Positions 97 through 6,825 of a DNA stretch of 8,788 nt are shown piece by piece. Source of the DNA: a virus; the UHGV virus genome UHGV-1374307; one strand, written 5' to 3'. Position 1 is the stretch's first letter. Each line of letters begins with the position of its first letter. The notes under the pieces were generated by a model, which worked only from the letters and a program-made list of their open reading frames with translations, did no database searches and was not told the origin of the DNA. The translations under genes were made by a program, and so were the position numbers.

Positions 97-330
97 TCAT
101 TGGTCACAGACCGTAATCCACTGGCCCAGGACGTCTTTCAGGCAATGTTGGCATAAATCCAGTTTTAAGCGATTACTGTCACCAAAAATTGAACCGTATC
201 CAGCTAAGTGATTAACAGACAGAAACTCATTGAACTCAATGTCATCTACCACCGTCTTCGCATGGCGACCACAGCGATCGCAGGTCTTCGCACATAACAT
301 TACAGTATCGCTGGATGTGAAAAATTGCAT
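97..330 (-). CDS. Small putative zinc-ribbon protein (77 aa)
   Basis: Strong RBS (AGGAG, 5-nt spacer, ATG 328-330). Cys motifs CAKTCDRCG and CQHC suggest a zinc ribbon. Last gene before the dif-like hairpin region. Confidence 0.55.
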   Translation of the reverse strand: MQFFTSSDTVMLCAKTCDRCGRHAKTVVDDIEFNEFLSVNHLAGYGSIFGDSNRLKLDLCQHCLKDVLGQWITVCDQ

Positions 331-374
331 TTTATCTCCTCGTAATGCTGCCGCGCCGAATCAGCAATAACGCT

Positions 375-446
375 AAAAAAACAGAATTGTTCGGCTTGGC
401 CAACCCCTGACACTAACAAAAGCAAGTTTTGTTATTGTCCGGGGTT
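375..446 (-). other. Structured intergenic region between the two accessory genes (hairpins plus T7 run); possible terminator
   Basis: AACAAAA-GCAAG-TTTTGTT hairpin (415-433) nested in AACCCC...GGGGTT (402-446); 8-bp palindrome TTGGCCAA (396-403); A7 run at 375-381, which is a T7 run on the coding strand. Confidence 0.3.
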
Positions 447-447
447 A

Positions 448-756
448 TCATATAAACCAATAGACCGTCCTTACGCCATTCTGGTTATCAATAACATAGC
501 CGCATTGTTTCCTTAAAAATTCTTCTGCTAAATCAATGGCTTTTACAGAAATCTCATAAGAAGGAAGTAAAGTGTATCCTTTCCCTTCACTGGCAGCTGC
601 TTTGATCGCATCCAGAGTATTATCAATCAGTAACAGAGCAAGTGATGCTTCATTTACCTGAGCCGAAGAACTTCTGGCTGCAAGTGTCATTGTTTTTGCT
701 TCTTCCGCTGTAATCGTTCGTTCTGCCAGAGCAGATAAAATCCCATAAGAATCCAT
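448..756 (-). CDS. Hypothetical protein (102 aa), accessory gene downstream of gIV
   Basis: ATG 754-756 preceded by TTGGGGTAACTA; no paralog in Ff. No family recognised by eye. Confidence 0.5.
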   Translation of the reverse strand: MDSYGILSALAERTITAEEAKTMTLAARSSSAQVNEASLALLLIDNTLDAIKAAASEGKGYTLLPSYEISVKAIDLAEEFLRKQCGYVIDNQNGVRTVYWFI

Positions 757-776
757 TAGTTACCCCAATCAATAAT

Positions 777-836
777 GTCCATTTGATGGATAGCGAGCAG
801 GGCTCACGCACCTACCCGCTATCCATCAAAGTGGAC
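777..836 (-). other. Long near-perfect hairpin overlapping the gIV stop codon; candidate packaging-signal and/or terminator hairpin
   Basis: GTCCATTTGATGGATAGCG (777-795) pairs with CGCTATCCATCAAA(G)TGGAC (817-836): ~19-bp stem with one bulged G and a 21-nt loop. No U-tract follows on the coding strand. In Ff the packaging-signal hairpin lies immediately 3' of gIV. Confidence 0.45.
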
Positions 837-2091
837 GAATGATATGTGCTGTAAGCAAAATATACATAATACGCTGTTCATTGCTGTCTGCCTTGCTACT
901 GAAAATCCAGCCTATAAGAGGAATTTTACTTATAACTGGAACTGAACGCTCGGCATTGCTGAACGATGAATCGATAAGCCCCCCCAATAACAACGTCTGA
1001 CCATCCTTAATCTGGACTGTCGTCTGAATCTGGCGCTGATTAGTAATAATATCGGATGCCTGATCATCATTGCTGATTGAATCAGCGCGAGTGTCGATAG
1101 TCAGAACTAGTTGCCCGTTACCCATGACAACAGGCGTTACCTTGAGAGAAACGCCAACATCATGACGCTCGATAGTCTGAAACGGATTATTTACCCCGGC
1201 AGATTCGCCCGTTACCTTTCCGGTGATAAACGGCACATTCTTACCTACGGAAATGTAACCAGTCTGACCAGACTGAGTAAGAATACGCGGCGTTGAAATC
1301 ACCTTAGAGCGTGAATTACTCTGGACAGCACGCAGAGACAGCGCCAACACGTTACCATCAAAAATACCAAAAGAACCGCCCGCCGTAGAAAGAGCGCTAC
1401 CCAGTGCAGAAGTATTAAAGCCCCCCGCAACCTTATGACCGGATGCAGAACCTGCCGCAAACGATAAATCAACGCCATCAGACAAGCTGGTTTCAAACAT
1501 CAGCGACTGAATGAGAACCTGATCGCGGGCAACATCCACAGAATTGATAAAATCGGACAGAACCGGCAGCAGCTCGTCAGGCGCAGAAACAATCAGCGAG
1601 TTATTGCCTGGATAATCCACGACATTACCACCACCATTAGAATCAAGATAAATTTTAATCAGTTGCTGAACATCGGACGATCTAACTTTTGTCAGCTTAA
1701 AATTTCTGACCGTAAGCGCCACAGGTACTGGCTGGTAAGATGGCTCAGAAGGAAAAGTATCATAAGACTGGTTATCAGAATCATCGGAATCCGAAACCAT
1801 CTGTGAAGGTAATTTAGACGGCAAAGAGACTACCGCAGGATTGCCAGAAAGCATGACAAAACCGTTAGCATTCAGAACAGACTTAAAGAAATCATCAATA
1901 TTTGCTGGATTAACATCAGCATTAAATACGGTTACGTTTCCTTTAATATCAGGATTAACAATAACAGGCTTGCCAGTTTTTGAAGAATACCACTGAACAA
2001 ATGAGCGAACAGATGAATTATTTAAATTAACAGTTTCAGCAGAAACGCAGAATGAATAGGCAAATAAAAAAGCAACAATAACAGAGCGCAT
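826..2091 (-). CDS. IV: Outer-membrane secretin pIV (421 aa)
   Basis: Signal peptide MRSVIVAFLFAYSFCVSA; secretin motifs shared with Ff pIV (VPFITGKVTGESAGVNNPFQTIERHDVG; DGQTLLLGGL; ISKIPLIGWIFSS). Preferred start ATG 2089-2091 with AGGAG 9 nt upstream; the track ORF is extended upstream to 2184. Confidence 0.95.
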   Translation of the reverse strand: MRSVIVAFLFAYSFCVSAETVNLNNSSVRSFVQWYSSKTGKPVIVNPDIKGNVTVFNADVNPANIDDFFKSVLNANGFVMLSGNPAVVSLPSKLPSQMVSDSDDSDNQSYDTFPSEPSYQPVPVALTVRNFKLTKVRSSDVQQLIKIYLDSNGGGNVVDYPGNNSLIVSAPDELLPVLSDFINSVDVARDQVLIQSLMFETSLSDGVDLSFAAGSASGHKVAGGFNTSALGSALSTAGGSFGIFDGNVLALSLRAVQSNSRSKVISTPRILTQSGQTGYISVGKNVPFITGKVTGESAGVNNPFQTIERHDVGVSLKVTPVVMGNGQLVLTIDTRADSISNDDQASDIITNQRQIQTTVQIKDGQTLLLGGLIDSSFSNAERSVPVISKIPLIGWIFSSKADSNEQRIMYILLTAHIIRPL

Positions 2092-2098
2092 AATAATA

Positions 2099-2473
2099 TT
2101 ACTCCTGACAGGTAACAGTCTGTAAATAACGGCCTTTTCTAATAACAACACGACAGGCATCTTTAATATCAACGGAATAACCATCTTTAATCAAATCAAA
2201 ATACTGATATTTCATACCTTTTGCATCAACAAACGTAACGGAAACGTCAAAGCCAAGTTGTGAAAAAGAATTAATAGAAAGTCGGGGTAAGTCACTGGAC
2301 GAATCAGGCGTTACCGCCCTCGCCTGTTCAGCATAAGCAGATTTAATAGCTGAGATTTCATCAACATTCTTTCCAGACTGGAGCCAGAAACCAAACGCAA
2401 GCCCCAGCGCCAAAAAAGAAAGCATTAATATAAGACGGTTCGATTTGCGAAAATAAATTTTAGTGAGGCGCAT
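2099..2473 (-). CDS. XI: pXI, in-frame internal restart in gene I (124 aa, membrane-anchored C-terminal part)
   Basis: Internal Met at codon 241 (ATG 2471-2473), MRLTKIYFRKSNRLILMLSFLALGLAFGFW; Ff pXI also starts at Met241 with MKLTKIYLKKFSRV... (from memory). Confidence 0.6.
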   Translation of the reverse strand: MRLTKIYFRKSNRLILMLSFLALGLAFGFWLQSGKNVDEISAIKSAYAEQARAVTPDSSSDLPRLSINSFSQLGFDVSVTFVDAKGMKYQYFDLIKDGYSVDIKDACRVVIRKGRYLQTVTCQE

Positions 2474-3193
2474 ATAATAATTAAATCCTCTGTGAACAGA
2501 AAATTGACCGTGCGTGATAAATGGTGGCAAAAGCGAAAATGCGCCATGAGGATAATTATCTGTGAACGCTTGTTTGGTATTGTAAGCAGAATAAAGAGAT
2601 TTTCCTGTATATATCCATTTATCAACAGTGATTGAATTAACATTGTCACCATATTTGACAATGCCAAAGTGTACCTTTGGTAGAGAAAATCTCGCCCCTG
2701 AAACCAAATTCATAATGGAGCCAACAAAAGGAATGTTTAATTTATCTGAACGGCGACAATAAACAACATGCTCAGCAAGCGCCAGACGAGCTTGCTTATC
2801 CATTATCGAAATATCCTGAATCAAAAATATAATATCCCAGCCTAATTTTCTGGCATGTAAAAACCAGTCAATAACAGGTTGTCTGTCTTTATCACCCCAT
2901 GAGCGGGAATTAAACCAAGTACCACATTCATCAAGTACAAGGAGGCCATTACGGGATTCATCGTAAGATGCATTCCCAATACCAATAGCAAGTAAATCAT
3001 TTAATGAAGGCTTGTCAGGAATGCGAATAACGCGCGTTTTTTTCGCATAACGCCCAACCATAGGCATATTATGCAATTTAAGATCAAGATTAGTGGCAAC
3101 AGGACAACCCTTAGCAAGTCTTTCCTGTATTCTGGAAACACTAACAAGTGTCTTGCCTGAGCCTAATTTGCCTGTTACTACATAAACCGCCAT
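2099..3193 (-). CDS. I: Assembly ATPase pI (Zot-like), 364 aa
   Basis: MAVYVVTGKLGSGKTLVS (Walker A), LVLDECGTWFN, IDWFLHARKLGWDIIFL, EHVVYCRR: strong similarity to Ff pI across the N-terminal domain as I recall it. ATG 3191-3193 abuts the gVI stop (TAAATG). Confidence 0.95.
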   Translation of the reverse strand: MAVYVVTGKLGSGKTLVSVSRIQERLAKGCPVATNLDLKLHNMPMVGRYAKKTRVIRIPDKPSLNDLLAIGIGNASYDESRNGLLVLDECGTWFNSRSWGDKDRQPVIDWFLHARKLGWDIIFLIQDISIMDKQARLALAEHVVYCRRSDKLNIPFVGSIMNLVSGARFSLPKVHFGIVKYGDNVNSITVDKWIYTGKSLYSAYNTKQAFTDNYPHGAFSLLPPFITHGQFSVHRGFNYYMRLTKIYFRKSNRLILMLSFLALGLAFGFWLQSGKNVDEISAIKSAYAEQARAVTPDSSSDLPRLSINSFSQLGFDVSVTFVDAKGMKYQYFDLIKDGYSVDIKDACRVVIRKGRYLQTVTCQE

Positions 3194-3535
3194 TTAAATC
3201 ACCCTGTTTGCATAATCAAGAAATTTTTGTTTTAAATCGAAAACAAAAACACTGATACGAGTAACCATAATAACGTTAACACACGCCTGAAAATGGTCAG
3301 GCAATACAGACGCCATTAAATGGGAGAAATCAGCAGGTAAACCGTTATACATGACCTCAGCAAGGTACTGCATTAAAAGCGTAACAGTTGTTGTAATTAA
3401 TGCGACCAATGCAAAGGCGATTAATCCTGTTCTGGTAGCAAGTCGAGCTAAAAAACTCGCCACATAGCCAATAAACAAAGGAACAAGACCAATAAGAAAA
3501 CGCAACAATGCAGGAATACCCAATAATAAAGGCAT
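3194..3535 (-). CDS. VI: Minor coat protein pVI (113 aa)
   Basis: [14 protein letters not shown]... vs Ff pVI MPVLLGIPLLLRFL...; C-terminal FVFDLKQK vs Ff FIFDVKQK. Preferred start is ATG 3533-3535, overlapping the gIII stop (TGATG); the track begins one codon earlier at GTG 3538. Confidence 0.9.
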   Translation of the reverse strand: MPLLLGIPALLRFLIGLVPLFIGYVASFLARLATRTGLIAFALVALITTTVTLLMQYLAEVMYNGLPADFSHLMASVLPDHFQACVNVIMVTRISVFVFDLKQKFLDYANRVI

Positions 3536-4782
3536 CACTCACCCCCTTTGCGAAGCAATGAAGTTAAAGAAGTAAAGACATACCAGAACGTAAGGCAATA
3601 AAAAACCCATGAAAGAACATCTTTAATAGTCAGTAATTTATCGCAACCAATATCAATCTGATAAACCTCTCCGGGAAATATAATAAAATCAGAGCAGCCG
3701 TTACCATTGGGTAAATTAGGCAGCATAGCACCTTTATTTAAAAATGCTTCCCATAAAGCACCGTGAGAATCCTTTTCAATTCCCAATTCAGAATCAGCCA
3801 AAGTAGAAGCGCCATCTAATTCAGAGTCGCCCTTTCCATAACGAGAATCACCACCTGAAGGGTCAGCAAAACGGCCAGCCCCCCGCGTAAGATTGTTAAT
3901 GGAATCGTCAAGACGATTTATATTATTCCTGGTTTGTTCATCGGCATTTTTTTTATCATCTGATGAAGTGTCTTTCTCCGTTAATTTATCATGAATATCG
4001 CTGGCTATTTTGGGTGAAGCACCTTCGATCGCAGACTGAATATCACCTTTAGAAAGACTGGAACCACTAGAGTCACCGCCAGAACTACCGCCAGAACTAC
4101 CGCCACCGGACTCACCACCGCCAGACTCACCACCGCTGGACTCACCACTGCCAGACTCACCACCACCATTTTGGGGGGTTGAGGGTTTATCAGAGGGGTC
4201 AGCTACAGCACCTGTAGGCTTCCATGTTGCAGCGCAAACAGTACCATCACCCTGACAAACAATGACACCAGTAGCCTCATATTCACAGCCGTTATAGTAG
4301 ATATAGCGACCACCATCATATGAATCAACATTATTAAATACACCTTCTTCTGGCGGCTTCGCTTCACAAATTTCTTCTGGTGTCGGGTCAGTAGGTTTTT
4401 CATCAGGAACAGAACGCTGAATATTACCAACAATATAAGCCGTTAAAGACCAATATTTATCCTTCTGCCCTGGTGAATCGCTGTAAGTACAATCGCCAGT
4501 AAAAACAAGACGGAATTCAGAATCAGGCCAGATACCCTCATAAGTTGGTTTAATCCGAGTAAATACACTCTGAGCACTGGATTTAGCACCCTGACAAGCG
4601 GAGGCCTGCATAGCAGCATCAATATAGTAAACCGTTATCTTAGAGCCATCCTGATTGGTTATTTGCTTACTTTCAGCGTAGGCAGAACTTTGATAAGTGG
4701 ATTTAGTAATGCTTTCCCATGACTCAGCATGTGAAAAAGGAGAAATGAGGACAGCGGAAAGAATTAATATTTTCCTTCTCAT
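3535..4782 (-). CDS. III: Adsorption/minor coat protein pIII (415 aa)
   Basis: True start is the internal ATG at 4780-4782 ([19 protein letters not shown] signal peptide); the track ORF is an upstream read-through. Contains an Ff N1-like TolA-binding motif ([31 protein letters not shown] vs Ff RYANYEGCLWNATGVVVCTGDETQCYGTWVP), a Gly/Ser/Glu-rich linker, and a C-terminal membrane anchor (CDKLL...[20 protein letters not shown] vs Ff CDKINLF...FMYVFSTFANILRNKES). Confidence 0.9.
4072..4168 (-). repeat. Tandem imperfect 12-15 bp repeats encoding the pIII Gly/Ser/Glu linker
   Basis: Plus strand reads CACCGCCAGAACTAC CGCCAGAACTAC CGCCACCGGACTCACCACCGCCAGACTCACCACCGCTGGACTCACCACTGCCAGACTCACCACC; encodes [31 protein letters not shown]. 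Confidence 0.8.
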
Positions 4783-4791
4783 AGTAACCCG

Positions 4792-4819
4792 CTTTAATAA
4801 AGGGGCAACGAGTGCCCCT
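4792..4819 (-). terminator. Rho-independent terminator between gVIII and gIII
   Basis: On the coding strand: AGGGGCA-CTCGT-TGCCCCT followed by TTATTAAAG, immediately after the gVIII stop and before the gIII start; same position as the strong post-gVIII terminator of Ff phages. Confidence 0.8.
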
Positions 4820-4828
4820 GAGTGAAAT

Positions 4829-5071
4829 TCAAACCGCTTTTGAAGAGAATTTTTTGAAAATACGAATGGCAAGCCCAGCGCCAACCACAGCAACAACAAC
4901 AGGCCATACTTTACCAATGAGATCATTTGCCTGAGTCAACAAAGCATCCATTGCCTGACCTGCATAATCAGTACCACCTGTAGCGCCTTCAGCCGCAAAA
5001 GAACTTGCAGAAATAAAAAGCGCAGTTGAAGCCAAAGCAATTTTATATTTAACAGTAGACAGAATTTTCAT
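4829..5071 (-). CDS. VIII: Major coat protein pVIII precursor (80 aa; signal peptide ending SFA, mature ~54 aa)
   Basis: [26 protein letters not shown] / AEGATGG...[25 protein letters not shown]: signal peptide, acidic N-terminus, hydrophobic core and basic C-terminal tail typical of Ff/IKe coat proteins (the KKFSSKAV tail is IKe-like, from memory). SD GGAG 8 nt upstream of ATG 5069-5071. Confidence 0.95.
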
Positions 5072-5090
5072 AGGAATAACTCCATTAAGG

Positions 5091-5186
5091 TTACATTAAT
5101 CGGTCAGAAAATGATTTAAATGAACCGACCGCATAGAAAAGGGCAAAACCAAAGGTATAAGCCCCGAAGAAATAAACGATATACAT
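5091..5186 (-). CDS. IX: Minor coat protein pIX-like (31 aa)
   Basis: ATG 5184-5186 overlaps the gVII stop (TAATG). Product MYIVYFFGAYTFGFALFYAVGSFKSFSDRLM resembles Ff pIX (MSVLVYSFASFVLGW...YFTRLM...). It is the C-terminal 31 aa of track ORF 5091..5315. Confidence 0.7.
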   Translation of the reverse strand: MYIVYFFGAYTFGFALFYAVGSFKSFSDRLM

Positions 5187-5272
5187 TAACGAAAGACCCC
5201 CGCAGTAATCGCGCCAAGGCCAAAAGAAATAACGATGCCAGACGCTATCAAAATTTGAATAACATCGTCCAT
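5186..5272 (-). CDS. VII: Minor coat protein pVII-like (28 aa, hydrophobic)
   Basis: Hand translation from ATG 5270-5272: MDDVIQILIASGIVISFGLGAITAGVFR, stop TAA 5186-5188. Small hydrophobic peptide between gV and gIX as in Ff. Below the ORF-track size cutoff. Confidence 0.6.
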   Translation of the reverse strand: MDDVIQILIASGIVISFGLGAITAGVFR

Positions 5273-5603: not shown

Positions 5604-5918
5604 TTAATGCCAGCTACTGGCGTGCGAAATACGGTTGTAATCGAAAATAAAACCTTTCTCATAAATCCATAAGGGGATTTCCGCTGGCTTGGCTTCCAGC
5701 GTTCTTATTAGCGGAACAACGTTATTAGAGTCTGGTGAATCACAATAGAAATTAATATCGATACCGAACGAAAGCAATTCTCTTCTATGGCGATAAAAAG
5801 TGTTATGAGGTAACATTTCTTTCATGTTAGCCCCTTGTTTCCAAAGTAAATAAGTTGACTGTATTTTTCTTGGCAGTTTCGTTATTTTTTCATCACTTAA
5901 AATAGCATTCTGATTCAT
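5604..5918 (-). CDS. X: pX, in-frame internal restart within gene II (C-terminal 104 aa)
   Basis: Internal ATG at 5916-5918 giving MNQNAILSDEK... (Ff pX also begins MN...); preceded on the coding strand by GGGAGAATAGAA (SD GGGAG). Same arrangement as Ff gene X. Confidence 0.65.
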   Translation of the reverse strand: MNQNAILSDEKITKLPRKIQSTYLLWKQGANMKEMLPHNTFYRHRRELLSFGIDINFYCDSPDSNNVVPLIRTLEAKPAEIPLWIYEKGFIFDYNRISHASSWH

Positions 5919-6656
5919 TTCTATTCTCCCTACATATTCAGAGAATAATTGACGTGGTGTTTTCATATTCCAGTTAGCGCCAAGCGTTAAATTTAAATCA
6001 ATAAGCTCAGTTGTTCTTAATGTTAATTCAATACGTAATTTATCTTTCGTCCAGTCCAGTAACCCGGCTCGTACAAACTCTTCGGCTATCTGGTGCCCTT
6101 TTTTACCAGAAACGTGTTCATCATATTTTGAATAAAATTTCAGACTCCATCGACGGGAGTTTTTACCTAAATAAACTGTACCGCCTTTCCCACATGCGCG
6201 ACCATGGCGTGTTTTAGCTTTAAATTCGGCGGCATAAAGCCATGATCTGACATTTTCCAGCGTAGATAATGAATACATGTAATTAATGTCAACACGTGAA
6301 ATTTTATACTGACCTGCCATAACGGCTTTATAAGACGCTAAATCATGAGGAATATTCAATAAGGATAAAATCCTGGCATAGACCGTCAACATGAGCCCTT
6401 GTATATCATCCGACCCAACAACAGAATGCCCCTGCAGAAACTTGGAAGGATTACCATCAATGTACAAATGTGTCGCTTTACCTTCGCCATTAGATCCTAT
6501 CGATCGTACTTTCATCGTTGCTTCATGCGAGCCGCGAACAGTCAGTCGCTTAACGGTTTCCCACTCAATTGCACCGTCAGCATCAACGCTGACAACACTC
6601 CCCGCCGGAAGCGGTTTGTGTGTGCAAGGGAAAATCCCGGTAAGCCAATCGATCAC
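5604..6656 (-). CDS. II: Replication initiation protein pII (rolling-circle nickase)
   Basis: Motifs shared with Ff pII as I recall it: KFLQGHSVVG (Ff KVLQGHNVFG) and C-terminal NNVVPLIR (Ff NNVVPLVR). ORF track starts at GTG 6698 with no Shine-Dalgarno; I prefer the in-frame GTG at 6654-6656, preceded by TTGAGGATTTATTC (GAGGA, 7-nt spacer), giving N-terminus MIDWL like Ff MIDML. Exact start uncertain. Confidence 0.85.
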   Translation of the reverse strand: MIDWLTGIFPCTHKPLPAGSVVSVDADGAIEWETVKRLTVRGSHEATMKVRSIGSNGEGKATHLYIDGNPSKFLQGHSVVGSDDIQGLMLTVYARILSLLNIPHDLASYKAVMAGQYKISRVDINYMYSLSTLENVRSWLYAAEFKAKTRHGRACGKGGTVYLGKNSRRWSLKFYSKYDEHVSGKKGHQIAEEFVRAGLLDWTKDKLRIELTLRTTELIDLNLTLGANWNMKTPRQLFSEYVGRIEMNQNAILSDEKITKLPRKIQSTYLLWKQGANMKEMLPHNTFYRHRRELLSFGIDINFYCDSPDSNNVVPLIRTLEAKPAEIPLWIYEKGFIFDYNRISHASSWH

Positions 6657-6825
6657 GAATAAATCCTCAAAATTGCAAAAATGACGACTTACTAACACAT
6701 GAGTTCAGTAGTTCATTAGTGTTTAAACATTACACCAGTGAGCTAGTGAGTTCAAGAGGCTTGGATGATATGAGTTCATGAGCATGTATACTCACTTCAA
6801 ATATTGCATTGAACGAGCGTAAAAA
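6657..6825. promoter_or_regulatory. Divergent control region between gII and the plus-strand accessory block, with three direct TGAGTTCA repeats
   Basis: TGAGTTCA at 6700-6707, 6747-6754 and 6771-6778, plus AGTGAG half-repeats at 6737-6742 and 6745-6750. The region must contain the gII promoter and the promoter of CDS 6826-7008. No promoter hexamers assigned confidently. Confidence 0.45.

What the first reader, a model, noticed from the sequence alone, without database searches (positions are those of the whole stretch)
777..836. 19-bp-stem hairpin overlapping the gIV stop: packaging-signal candidate
Near-perfect inverted repeat with a 21-nt loop whose arm contains the gIV stop codon; no U-tract follows on the coding strand, so a pure intrinsic terminator is less likely. 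Its position immediately 3' of gIV matches that of the Ff packaging-signal hairpin.
Basis: partly seen in the sequence, partly recalled or inferred. Interest (0 to 1): 0.45.

Follow-up and report, generated by a model that had tools for sequence, protein, structure and literature searches.

The report
IKe-type packaging hairpin of CUS-1-like phage
The hairpin over the end of gene IV is real and is the counterpart of the DNA "packaging signal" of the classical filamentous phage IKe, here in a chromosome-integrating E. coli phage of the CUS-1/YpfPhi type; this is an expected feature, but I found no description of it for this phage group.

Summary
Bases 777-836 form the most stable 80-nt local fold in the window (DNA dG -24.5 kcal/mol, z = -8.8). 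All core phage genes lie on the window minus strand, so that is the viral strand. The gIV stop (826-828) lies in the 5' arm.

The window is one unit of a CUS-1/YpfPhi-like filamentous prophage at E. coli dif. Its pIV is 70-73% identical to pIV of IKe and I2-2. Every member of that clade has a hairpin over the gIV stop with a near-invariant apex (window GGTAGGTGCGTGAGCCCTGC, IKe GGTAGGTGCGCTAGCCCTGC). The IKe record annotates that hairpin as the morphogenetic signal.

Among 15 distinct homologues:
- 92% of pair cells are paired.
- 18-19 of 27 pairs show compensatory double changes.
- All 15 are more stable on the viral strand.
- The pVII and pIX C-termini are conserved along with the apex.
- No U-tract is conserved.

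Verdict: the packaging-signal reading is supported, by homology and not by experiment. It is a new member of a known kind and of modest interest. One difference from Ff and IKe: cargo genes and the attP site, not the origin, follow the hairpin.

The parts
777..836 (-). Packaging-signal (morphogenetic-signal) hairpin, read on the viral strand: GTCCA[C]TTTGATGGATAGCGGGTAGG-T-GC-GTGA-GC-CCTGCTCGCTATCCATCAAA-TGGAC. It has 27 bp, one bulged C and two G.T wobbles.
   Evidence: Folds; genome-wide fold scan; covariance-model match of 95 bits on the - strand against 43.5 bits on the + strand; covariation.
797..816 (-). Conserved apex GGTAGGTGCGTGAGCCCTGC. Its four G-C pairs are invariant, its T.G wobble is nearly so, and the loop centre varies. 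Together with the preceding C at 817 it contains the CGGGT..GGTG motif on the ascending limb.
   Evidence: The apex pattern hit 16 IMG/VR contigs. All but one (L147, a chance match in GC-rich coding sequence) are contigs of pIV relatives whose hairpin overlaps the gIV stop. The IKe apex lies at 6160-6179 inside the annotated morphogenetic signal. Invariant columns are listed. The motif is described.
826..828 (-). gIV stop codon TGA, inside the 5' arm of the hairpin.
   Evidence: ORF 826-2184 (-); Secretin, Secretin_N and N0 domains; sequence.
826..2184 (-). gIV (pIV secretin). Its last three codons form the base of the 5' arm. RefSeq homologues start 93 nt further in.
   Evidence: pIV is 70% identical to IKe, 73% to I2-2, and 49-50% to If1 and Ff.
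5186..5272 (-). gVII (28 aa, MDDVIQILIASGIVISFGLGAITAGVFR), the predicted partner that recognises the hairpin. Its last 14 residues are identical to IKe pVII.
   Evidence: The homologue is annotated 'tail virion protein G7P-2'. The role of pVII and pIX in recognising the packaging signal comes from the papers read.
5091..5186 (-). gIX (31 aa, ...FKSFSDRLM), the predicted second recognition partner. Its C-terminus follows the IKe-clade pattern FKS..(D/N/E)R...

Best explanation
The hairpin is the packaging (morphogenetic) signal of this CUS-1/YpfPhi-like filamentous phage, and it is orthologous to the signal of IKe and I2-2.

Proposed mechanism, inferred from Ff and IKe biology: rolling-circle replication produces the viral strand, which is the window minus strand. 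The gene V protein coats that strand, but the 27-bp hairpin stays duplex and exposed. At the inner membrane the C-termini of pVII and pIX, together with the pI (Zot-like) assembly ATPase, recognise the hairpin, chiefly its conserved apex. Assembly starts there, so the hairpin sits at the end of the filament that leaves the cell first through the pIV channel.

What is shown here:
- the structure, and selection for it on the viral-sense strand;
- homology to the IKe element;
- conservation of the pVII and pIX tails along with the apex.

What is inferred: packaging activity, dependence on orientation, and the protein contacts. A secondary role at RNA level, such as an mRNA 3' end or rho-dependent termination after gIV as reported for f1, is compatible with the data and not excluded.
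For: 1. Identity of the phage. The window is a filamentous prophage unit at dif next to hipBA. Its gII, gV, gVII, gIX, gVIII, gIII, gVI, gI and gIV all lie on the minus strand.

2. Homology.
- pIV is 70% identical to IKe and 73% to I2-2.
- Each of the 14 other distinct relatives with 69-97% pIV identity has a hairpin over the gIV stop.
- The apex is near-invariant. In 15 of the 16 IMG/VR contigs that hold it, it belongs to this gIV-stop hairpin.
- The IKe copy lies within the feature annotated 'stem loop structure pot. transcription termination, morphogenetic signal' at 6141-6196.
- A preprint that cites Peeters 1985 and Russel & Model 1989 treats IKe 6141-6197 as the packaging signal. It notes a CGGGT..GGTG motif on the ascending limb of the Ff signal. 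The window has GCGGGTAGGTGCG there.

3. Selection for structure.
- 15 distinct sequences give 92% paired cells.
- 18-19 of 27 pairs have changes on both sides.
- 0 of 500 shuffles reach the observed score.
- Slid controls give 36-48% paired.
- Each sequence folds into the same hairpin on its own, without any model.

4. Strand. All 15 homologues are more stable on the viral strand, by 5.3 kcal/mol on average. They carry 1-4 G.T wobbles there and none on the complement.

5. Partners. pVII ends in SFGLGAITAGV(F/L/H)R and pIX in FKS..(D/N/E)R.. in 9 of the 10 distinct apex-bearing phages checked; the tenth (L145) differs at two pVII positions. If1 and f1 have a different apex (CTGCGCAGCG) and If1 pVII ends in ..GGQR.

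6. Module boundary. Homology of the morphogenesis module to IKe, I2-2 and other lineages ends inside or just after the hairpin. What follows differs between lineages.

7. The covariance model finds only one copy in the window.
Against: - No packaging experiment exists for this phage.
- I could not read Russel & Model 1989. The functional status of the IKe hairpin therefore rests on the GenBank annotation and on a secondary citation.
- Covariation and G.T (or G.U) asymmetry are equally expected for an element that acts in the gIV mRNA.
- In Ff and IKe the origin follows the hairpin directly. Here two same-strand ORFs, the attP site and antisense cargo follow it, and the candidate (+) origin is about 2.5 kb away along the viral strand.
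- The genome has two other long conserved hairpins: attP (-30.3 kcal/mol) and hairpin 2 at 402-446.
- The alignment used for pair counts was fitted to a model built from the structure, which biases it toward pairing.
Confidence: 0.8

Rival explanations
1. The hairpin acts only at RNA level. It would end, pause or stabilise the gIV transcript (a rho-dependent or factor-assisted terminator, an RNase-protective 3' hairpin, or a processing site). It would thereby set how much transcription reads into the downstream cargo genes orf102 and orf77.
For: - As RNA the hairpin is very stable (-53.3 kcal/mol for 121 nt, z -7.1).
- It sits exactly between gIV and orf102, which are on the same strand.
- The IKe annotation also says 'pot. 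transcription termination'.
- G.U-compatible asymmetry and covariation fit RNA as well as ssDNA.
- From my own knowledge, not checked here: f1 has a rho-dependent terminator just after gIV.
Against: - There is no U-tract in the window, and the 3' flanks are unrelated across the 15 homologues.
- In IKe and I2-2 nothing coding follows the hairpin, yet it is conserved there.
- An invariant apex that is conserved together with the pVII and pIX tails is not expected of a generic terminator.
- This reading does not exclude a packaging role; it is a rival only as the sole function.
Confidence: 0.1
2. The hairpin is part of the complementary (minus) strand origin: a duplex region in the ssDNA where RNA polymerase or primase starts the primer.
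For: - It is a long ssDNA hairpin in the region downstream of gIV, where Ff and IKe carry their minus-strand origins.
- It is under selection on the viral strand.
Against: - In IKe the homologous hairpin is distinct from the annotated minus-strand origin hairpins at 6333-6385 and 6410-6438.
- Other conserved non-coding elements in the window are better placed for that role: hairpin 2 with the stem that follows it (402-446 and downstream), and the If1-like element at 7525-7586.
Confidence: 0.05
3. The hairpin is a chance palindrome, a protein-binding dyad in duplex DNA, or a repeat-element remnant with no role in the single strand.
For: Inverted repeats of this size can serve as operator or recombination sites, and the prophage integrates through Xer recombination.
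Against: - z = -8.8.
- The sequence is 100% conserved across 700-900 in almost all of the 49 full-length E. coli matches, three of which are 99.5%.
- Compensatory changes keep the pairing while the sequence changes.
- Wobble pairs make the two strands unequal, which a duplex dyad would not require.
- The hairpin contains no dif-like sequence; the dif-like sites are at the window ends.
Confidence: 0.02

Closest known systems
Morphogenetic (packaging) signal of phage IKe (NC_002014 / X02139, nt 6141-6196) and its I2-2 counterpart
   Same: - The hairpin overlaps the gIV stop in the same way.
- The apex is the same at 18 of 20 bases, including the T.G wobble.
- The CGGGT..GGTG motif is on the ascending limb.
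- The stem is of similar length: 21-27 bp in the MFE folds.
- The pVII C-terminal 14 residues are identical to IKe, and pIX is similar.
- pIV is 70-73% identical.

   Different: - The lower and middle stem sequences differ, with compensating changes.
- The window stem is longer and more regular: 27 bp against 21 bp for IKe in the MFE folds.
- In IKe and I2-2 the minus- and plus-strand origins follow. Here a cargo slot (orf102), hairpin 2, orf77, a CTXphi-style attP and antisense accessory genes lie between the hairpin and the origin.
Ff (f1/M13/fd) packaging signal, hairpin [A] of the intergenic region
   Same: - It is an imperfect long hairpin in the viral strand that abuts the gIV stop. In the f1 sequence recovered as L010 it starts at the stop codon.
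- It carries CGGGT..GGTG on the ascending limb.
- It is recognised by the pVII and pIX C-termini at the start of assembly.
   Different: - The apex sequence is different: GCGCAGCG in f1 and If1 against GGTGCG..AGCC here.
- If1 pVII ends in ..GGQR against ..AGVFR here; from my memory f1 pVII also ends in ..GGQR.
- pIV is only about 50% identical.
- Ff does not integrate.
Packaging signals of integrative Xanthomonas filamentous phages (phiLf-UK and relatives; bioRxiv 10.1101/2023.12.30.573655)
   Same: These are also DNA hairpins that act as packaging signals in phages that lysogenise.
   Different: They are 20-26 nt long with 7-8 bp GC stems, lie mostly inside the replication gene, and do not depend on orientation. 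Those phages lack pIV. The hairpin here is of the long Ff/IKe type next to gIV.
CTXphi attP(+) forked hairpin
   Same: It is a long hairpin that forms only in the viral ssDNA of a phage integrating at dif. This phage has one of its own across the window ends, and that has been described for CUS-1 and YpfPhi.
   Different: The 777-836 hairpin has no dif-like XerC or XerD half-sites and no unpaired central region. It is a separate element about 720 nt upstream of attP on the viral strand.

Membership tests
Ff/IKe-type filamentous-phage packaging (morphogenetic) signal | Long imperfect hairpin (about 20-30 bp) formed by the viral (+) strand | tested here: met
   27 bp with one bulge, DNA dG -24.5, z -8.8 on the coding and viral strand. 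It is the most stable 80-nt fold of the genome.
Ff/IKe-type filamentous-phage packaging (morphogenetic) signal | Lies immediately 3' of gene IV, at the end of the morphogenesis module | tested here: met
   The 5' arm contains the last three gIV codons and the stop at 826-828. The position is the same in IKe (6141-6196 against the stop at 6149-6151) and in f1. The element that follows differs: cargo, not the origin.
Ff/IKe-type filamentous-phage packaging (morphogenetic) signal | Sequence homology to a curated member (IKe) | tested here: met
   18 of 20 apex bases are identical. A covariance model built from the window type finds IKe at 29.9 bits (E 5e-6) and I2-2 at 45.5 bits, at the annotated site.
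Ff/IKe-type filamentous-phage packaging (morphogenetic) signal | Structure maintained by selection (compensatory substitutions) | tested here: met
   92% of cells are paired, 18-19 of 27 pairs have double-sided changes, 0 of 500 shuffles reach the observed values, and slid controls give 36-48%.
Ff/IKe-type filamentous-phage packaging (morphogenetic) signal | Acts in one orientation only (viral strand) | tested here: inconclusive
   A proxy only: all 15 homologues are more stable on the viral strand, and G.T wobbles occur only there. Orientation dependence of packaging itself needs an experiment.
Ff/IKe-type filamentous-phage packaging (morphogenetic) signal | Cognate pVII and pIX tip proteins are present, with C-termini that recognise the hairpin | tested here: met
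   gVII at 5186-5272 and gIX at 5091-5186. The pVII C-terminal 14 residues are identical to IKe. The tails are conserved in all 10 distinct apex-bearing phages checked, with two substitutions in L145. Their role is taken from the papers.
Ff/IKe-type filamentous-phage packaging (morphogenetic) signal | Confers efficient encapsidation on a replicon in cis | not testable with these tools
   This requires a transduction or particle-yield assay.
Rho-independent (intrinsic) terminator | G+C-rich stem followed directly by a U-tract on the transcribed strand | tested here: not met
   The 3' flank is AUUAUUGAUUGGGG. The terminator scan does not list the site. The flanks of the 15 homologues are unrelated, and only one (L100) is T-rich.
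Ff/IKe minus-strand origin | Homology or positional equivalence to the annotated minus-origin hairpins (IKe 6333-6385 and 6410-6438) | tested here: not met
   The window hairpin aligns to the separate IKe feature at 6141-6196. blastn of the IKe intergenic region finds only that match.
CTXphi-type attP(+) | Two inverted dif-like XerC/XerD sites that form a forked hairpin | tested here: not met
   There is no dif-like sequence in 777-836. The dif-like pair lies at 8744-8788 plus 1-60.

The most novel reading that the evidence does not exclude
The hairpin may do more than start assembly. It is the fixed 3' boundary of the morphogenesis module, and new cargo genes are repeatedly inserted just behind it: orf102 here, an unrelated 82-aa ORF in another lineage, and nothing in others. 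As RNA it may also gate read-through from the late operon into that cargo slot. On this reading, one structure would couple virion assembly, cargo acquisition and cargo expression in dif-integrating phages. The slot is the position where CTXphi carries ctxAB.
Probability: 0.2. Interest if true: 0.45.

Novelty: new member of a known kind. Interest (0 to 1): 0.3.

Why it matters
CUS-1 and YpfPhi are the filamentous prophages of extra-intestinal pathogenic E. coli and of Yersinia pestis. The review I read describes no packaging signal for them. No paper in the searchable library mentions both CUS-1 and a packaging signal. A recent preprint states that the packaging signals of integrative filamentous phages are largely unknown.

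Assigning the signal gives a concrete 60-nt element for several uses:
- building transducing or marker phagemids for this phage group;
- testing cross-packaging with IKe helper;
- interpreting how tandem prophages produce packageable DNA.

The comparison also shows two apex classes of Ff-like packaging signals. Each travels with its own pVII and pIX tails, which makes this a natural data set for studying how the signal is recognised. Otherwise the finding is what a specialist would expect.

Tried and rejected
- **Plain MAFFT with RNAalifold.** On 90-nt segments it recovered only 5 apex pairs, because indels misaligned the 3' arm. I replaced it with a covariance model built from two gap-free sequences and realigned all homologues. 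That alignment also held reverse-strand matches and one spurious partial hit (L147). I removed these for my own count and also report the unfiltered tool count.
- **Rfam.** No family matched at E <= 1 anywhere in the window.
- **Intrinsic terminator.** Rejected: there is no U-tract and the flanks are not conserved.
- **The + strand sequence GTTCTTTATTGTG at about 7052-7064.** It looked like an Ff nick site on the wrong strand. I rejected this reading because the I2-2 match puts the origin hairpin on the viral strand.
- **Hairpin 2 (window 330-470) against the phage collection.** No match.
- **More distant pIV relatives.** Halomonas, Chromohalobacter and others at 40-44% identity show no comparable hairpin at the pIV stop, so the placement is not universal among phages with pIV.
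- **Primary papers.** Russel & Model 1989 and Gonzalez et al. 2002 are not held.
- **Unused tools.** I did not use the protein-database or structure tools. They would not bear on a non-coding DNA element whose neighbours already have clear Pfam assignments.

Full report
**1. What the window is**

The whole window matches E. coli chromosomes at 98-99.6% identity. The match is a filamentous prophage next to hipBA, which is at the dif locus. In some strains it is present as a tandem array.

Pfam identifies these genes, all on the window minus strand:

| Gene | Coordinates | Pfam assignment |
|---|---|---|
| gII | 5604-6698 | Phage_CRI, G2P_X_C |
| gIII | 3535-4926 | G3P pilus-binding domain |
| gVI | 3194-3538 | DUF5455 |
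| gI | 2099-3193 | Zot |
| gIV | 826-2184 | Secretin, Secretin_N, N0 |

- The small genes gVII (5186-5272) and gIX (5091-5186) were found by translation.
- The viral strand is therefore the window minus strand.
- The organisation matches the published description of CUS-1 and YpfPhi. That includes two ORFs of unknown function after the secretin gene: orf102 at 448-756 and orf77 at 97-330, the counterparts of YPO2280a and YPO2281.

**2. The observation**

- The inverted repeat is real and lies at the stated coordinates.
- On the viral strand two G.T wobbles and a 2-bp cap extend it to 27 bp with one bulged C and a 4-nt loop (dG -24.5, z -8.8, no shuffle as stable).
- It is the most stable 80-nt local fold on either strand of the circularised window. 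The longer attP fold is more stable in absolute terms.
- The gIV stop (826-828) and the last three gIV codons are in the 5' arm.
- The 3' flank, ATTATTGATTGGGG, has no U-tract, and the terminator scan does not list the site.

**3. Relatives**

Searching species-representative genomes and IMG/VR with pIV gave a graded series of relatives.

- Identical and 92-97% identical dif-type prophages came from Enterobacterales, for example Izhakiella.
- A 69-76% group includes IKe (70%) and I2-2 (73%).
- A 47-50% group includes If1, Ff and phages of Photorhabdus and Xenorhabdus. Ff was recovered as a contaminant contig that carries the f1 origin sequence.
- A 40-44% group comes from Halomonadaceae.

In every member of the first two groups the best fold around the gIV stop is a hairpin that overlaps the stop. 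The apex is near-invariant, GG(T/C)(A/G)GGTGCG-loop-AGCCC(T/C)G, while the stem below it differs.

An exact-pattern scan of IMG/VR for the apex found 16 contigs. Fifteen are pIV relatives whose hairpin overlaps the gIV stop. One, L147, was a chance hit in GC-rich coding sequence.

The 47-50% group, including f1 and If1, also has a hairpin at or just after the stop. Most of them have a different apex built around GCGCAGCG.

The 40-44% group shows no comparable hairpin there.

**4. Link to a known element**

- The IKe record annotates 6141-6196, which overlaps the gIV stop at 6149-6151, as 'stem loop structure pot. transcription termination, morphogenetic signal'.
- The IKe copy of the apex lies at 6160-6179, inside that feature.
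- A 2023 preprint that cites Peeters et al. 1985 and Russel & Model 1989 treats IKe 6141-6197 as the IKe packaging signal. It places the Ff and IKe signals between gIV and the origin. It quotes a CGGGT..GGTG motif on the ascending limb of the Ff signal.
- The window reads GCGGGTAGGTGCG at that place.
- I could not read Russel & Model 1989 itself.

**5. Selection for structure**

Plain alignment failed on the 3' arm. I therefore built a covariance model from the window and one gap-free relative, using the hairpin as the structure. I then realigned all loci to it.

After removing reverse-strand rows and the spurious hit, 15 distinct sequences remained. Two counts were made:

| Measure | Filtered count | Tool's unfiltered count |
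|---|---|---|
| Cells that form a standard pair | 92% | 92.2% (shuffles 73.5%) |
| Pairs changed on both sides, of 27 | 19 | 18 |
| Shuffles reaching the observed values | none of 1000 | 0 of 500 |
| Pairing with the partner slid 1-3 columns | 36-50% | 36-48% |

Because the alignment was fitted to the model, I also folded each sequence alone. All 15 give the same hairpin, with 21-27 bp.

- The four apex G-C pairs never vary.
- The T.G wobble beneath them is kept in 11 of 15 sequences and is C-G in the others.
- The loop centre varies.

Against Izhakiella alone the changes include A-T to G-C, A-T to T-A, C-G to G-C, T-A to C-G and an inserted A-T pair.

**6. Which strand**

All 15 homologues are more stable on the viral strand, by 5.3 kcal/mol on average. 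They have 1-4 G.T wobbles there and none on the complement. This rules out a purely duplex-DNA role. It does not separate viral ssDNA from mRNA of the same sense.

**7. Recognition partners**

In Ff, the C-termini of pVII and pIX recognise the packaging signal at the start of assembly.

- The window pVII ends in VISFGLGAITAGVFR, and its last 14 residues are identical to IKe.
- The pIX tail is FKSFSDRLM here and FKSISNRII in IKe.
- Nine of the ten distinct apex-bearing phages checked keep SFGLGAITAGV(F/L/H)R and FKS..(D/N/E)R... The tenth, L145, has two substitutions in the pVII tail.
- If1 has the other apex, and its pVII ends in ..GGQR. From memory, f1 does too.
- This correlation rests on two clades, so it is only suggestive.

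**8. Surroundings**

Homology of the morphogenesis module to IKe, I2-2 and the more distant dif-type lineages stops inside or just after the hairpin. What follows varies between lineages:

| Lineage | What lies between the hairpin and hairpin 2 |
|---|---|
| Window, L093, L094 | orf102 |
| L090 group | an unrelated 82-aa ORF |
| Izhakiella, L100 | only about 85 nt |

- Hairpin 2 (402-446) is a second conserved structure, and a further stem follows it.
- The candidate (+) origin hairpin is at 7026-7054.
- The packaging hairpin is therefore about 2.5 kb from the candidate origin along the viral strand, which is unlike Ff and IKe.

**9. Conclusion**

- The best explanation is that 777-836 is the packaging signal of this phage, orthologous to that of IKe. 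My confidence is about 0.8.
- The main rival is a purely RNA-level role after gIV, at about 0.1. It is compatible as a secondary function. As the sole function it is disfavoured by the missing U-tract, by the invariant apex, and by conservation in IKe and I2-2 where nothing coding follows.
- A minus-origin role (about 0.05) conflicts with the separate IKe annotation.
- The element is a new member of a known kind.
- I found no paper in the library that links CUS-1 or YpfPhi with a packaging signal. Two key older papers could not be read.

Noticed in passing
window 8744-8788 joined to 1-60 (viral = minus strand): The two ends of the window join into a forked hairpin made of two inverted dif-like sites: GGTGCGCATAATGTACGACTCGTTATGTTGAAAA, then a 10-bp GC stem and loop, then TTTAGCATAACGTCATTGTGCGCATC. 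Its DNA dG is -30.3 and z is -6.8. This is a CTXphi-style single-strand attP. The window is therefore a circular permutation, or one unit of a tandem array, cut in the hairpin loop. The feature has already been reported for CUS-1 and YpfPhi.
   Followed up: partly
window 7026-7054 (minus strand): The hairpin AACGTGCAGTGTTGGTAATACTGCACGTT matches the I2-2 intergenic region at 91% over 34 nt. It resembles the nick-site hairpins of IKe (GAGTCCACTATGTTTAATAGTGGACTC) and f1, so it is a likely (+) strand origin. It lies between two plus-strand ORFs (6826-7008 and 7097-7519). On the + strand it also looks like the terminator of the first ORF.
   Followed up: partly
window 7525-7586: A 62-nt structured non-coding element is 92% identical to part of the If1 major intergenic region (5045-5105). 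It is 96% identical over 45 nt to Alteromonas phage phiAFP1. It is 89-95% conserved in several dif-type relatives. Such conservation across distant hosts is striking. Its function is unknown; a minus-strand origin or priming site is possible. Rfam has no match.
   Followed up: partly
window 344-451 (minus strand; hairpin 402-446 plus GGGGTTGGCCAAGCCGAAC and a following stem): A second long hairpin (20 bp) and an adjacent stem are conserved at about 82%, with compensatory changes, in Izhakiella and in the L090, L091, L097 and L100 lineages. This holds whatever lies between it and the packaging hairpin. In position it is the analogue of the Ff hairpins B and C, the minus-strand origin. The phage collection gave no match.
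   Followed up: partly
window 448-756 (-), compared with L090 4510-4758 and L005 4412-4496: The interval just 3' of the packaging hairpin is a variable cargo slot. It holds orf102 (phrog_4115, function unknown) in the window, an unrelated 82-aa ORF in another lineage, and almost nothing in others. The YpfPhi review notes that CTXphi carries ctxAB at the position of these two ORFs.
   Followed up: partly
(loci L003, L010, L107-L115 against L100-L106 and L132-L146): Ff-like phages fall into two classes by the apex of the packaging hairpin. One has GCGCAGCG (f1, If1, Photorhabdus types). The other has GGTGCG..AGCC (IKe, I2-2, CUS-1 types). Each class tracks a different pVII C-terminus..GGQR in If1 (and, from memory, f1) against ..AGV(F/L/H)R. 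The comparison covers only two clades.
   Followed up: partly
window 3535-4926 (gIII) against L001 7533-8855 and L002 7492-8784: The gIII attachment-protein gene differs in length between otherwise 99% identical prophages: 1392 nt against 1323 and 1293 nt. Most of the length difference between the window and its best genomic matches lies elsewhere in the accessory region. The accessory ORFs at 7657-8743 are replaced by other genes in UM146.
   Followed up: no
loci L004, L010, L013, L022: Filamentous-phage sequences appear in assemblies labelled Nanosynbacter MAG, SAR11, Actinomadura and Paenibacillus. These include an f1/M13 origin, so they are almost certainly contaminants or vector carry-over in those public assemblies.
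   Followed up: no
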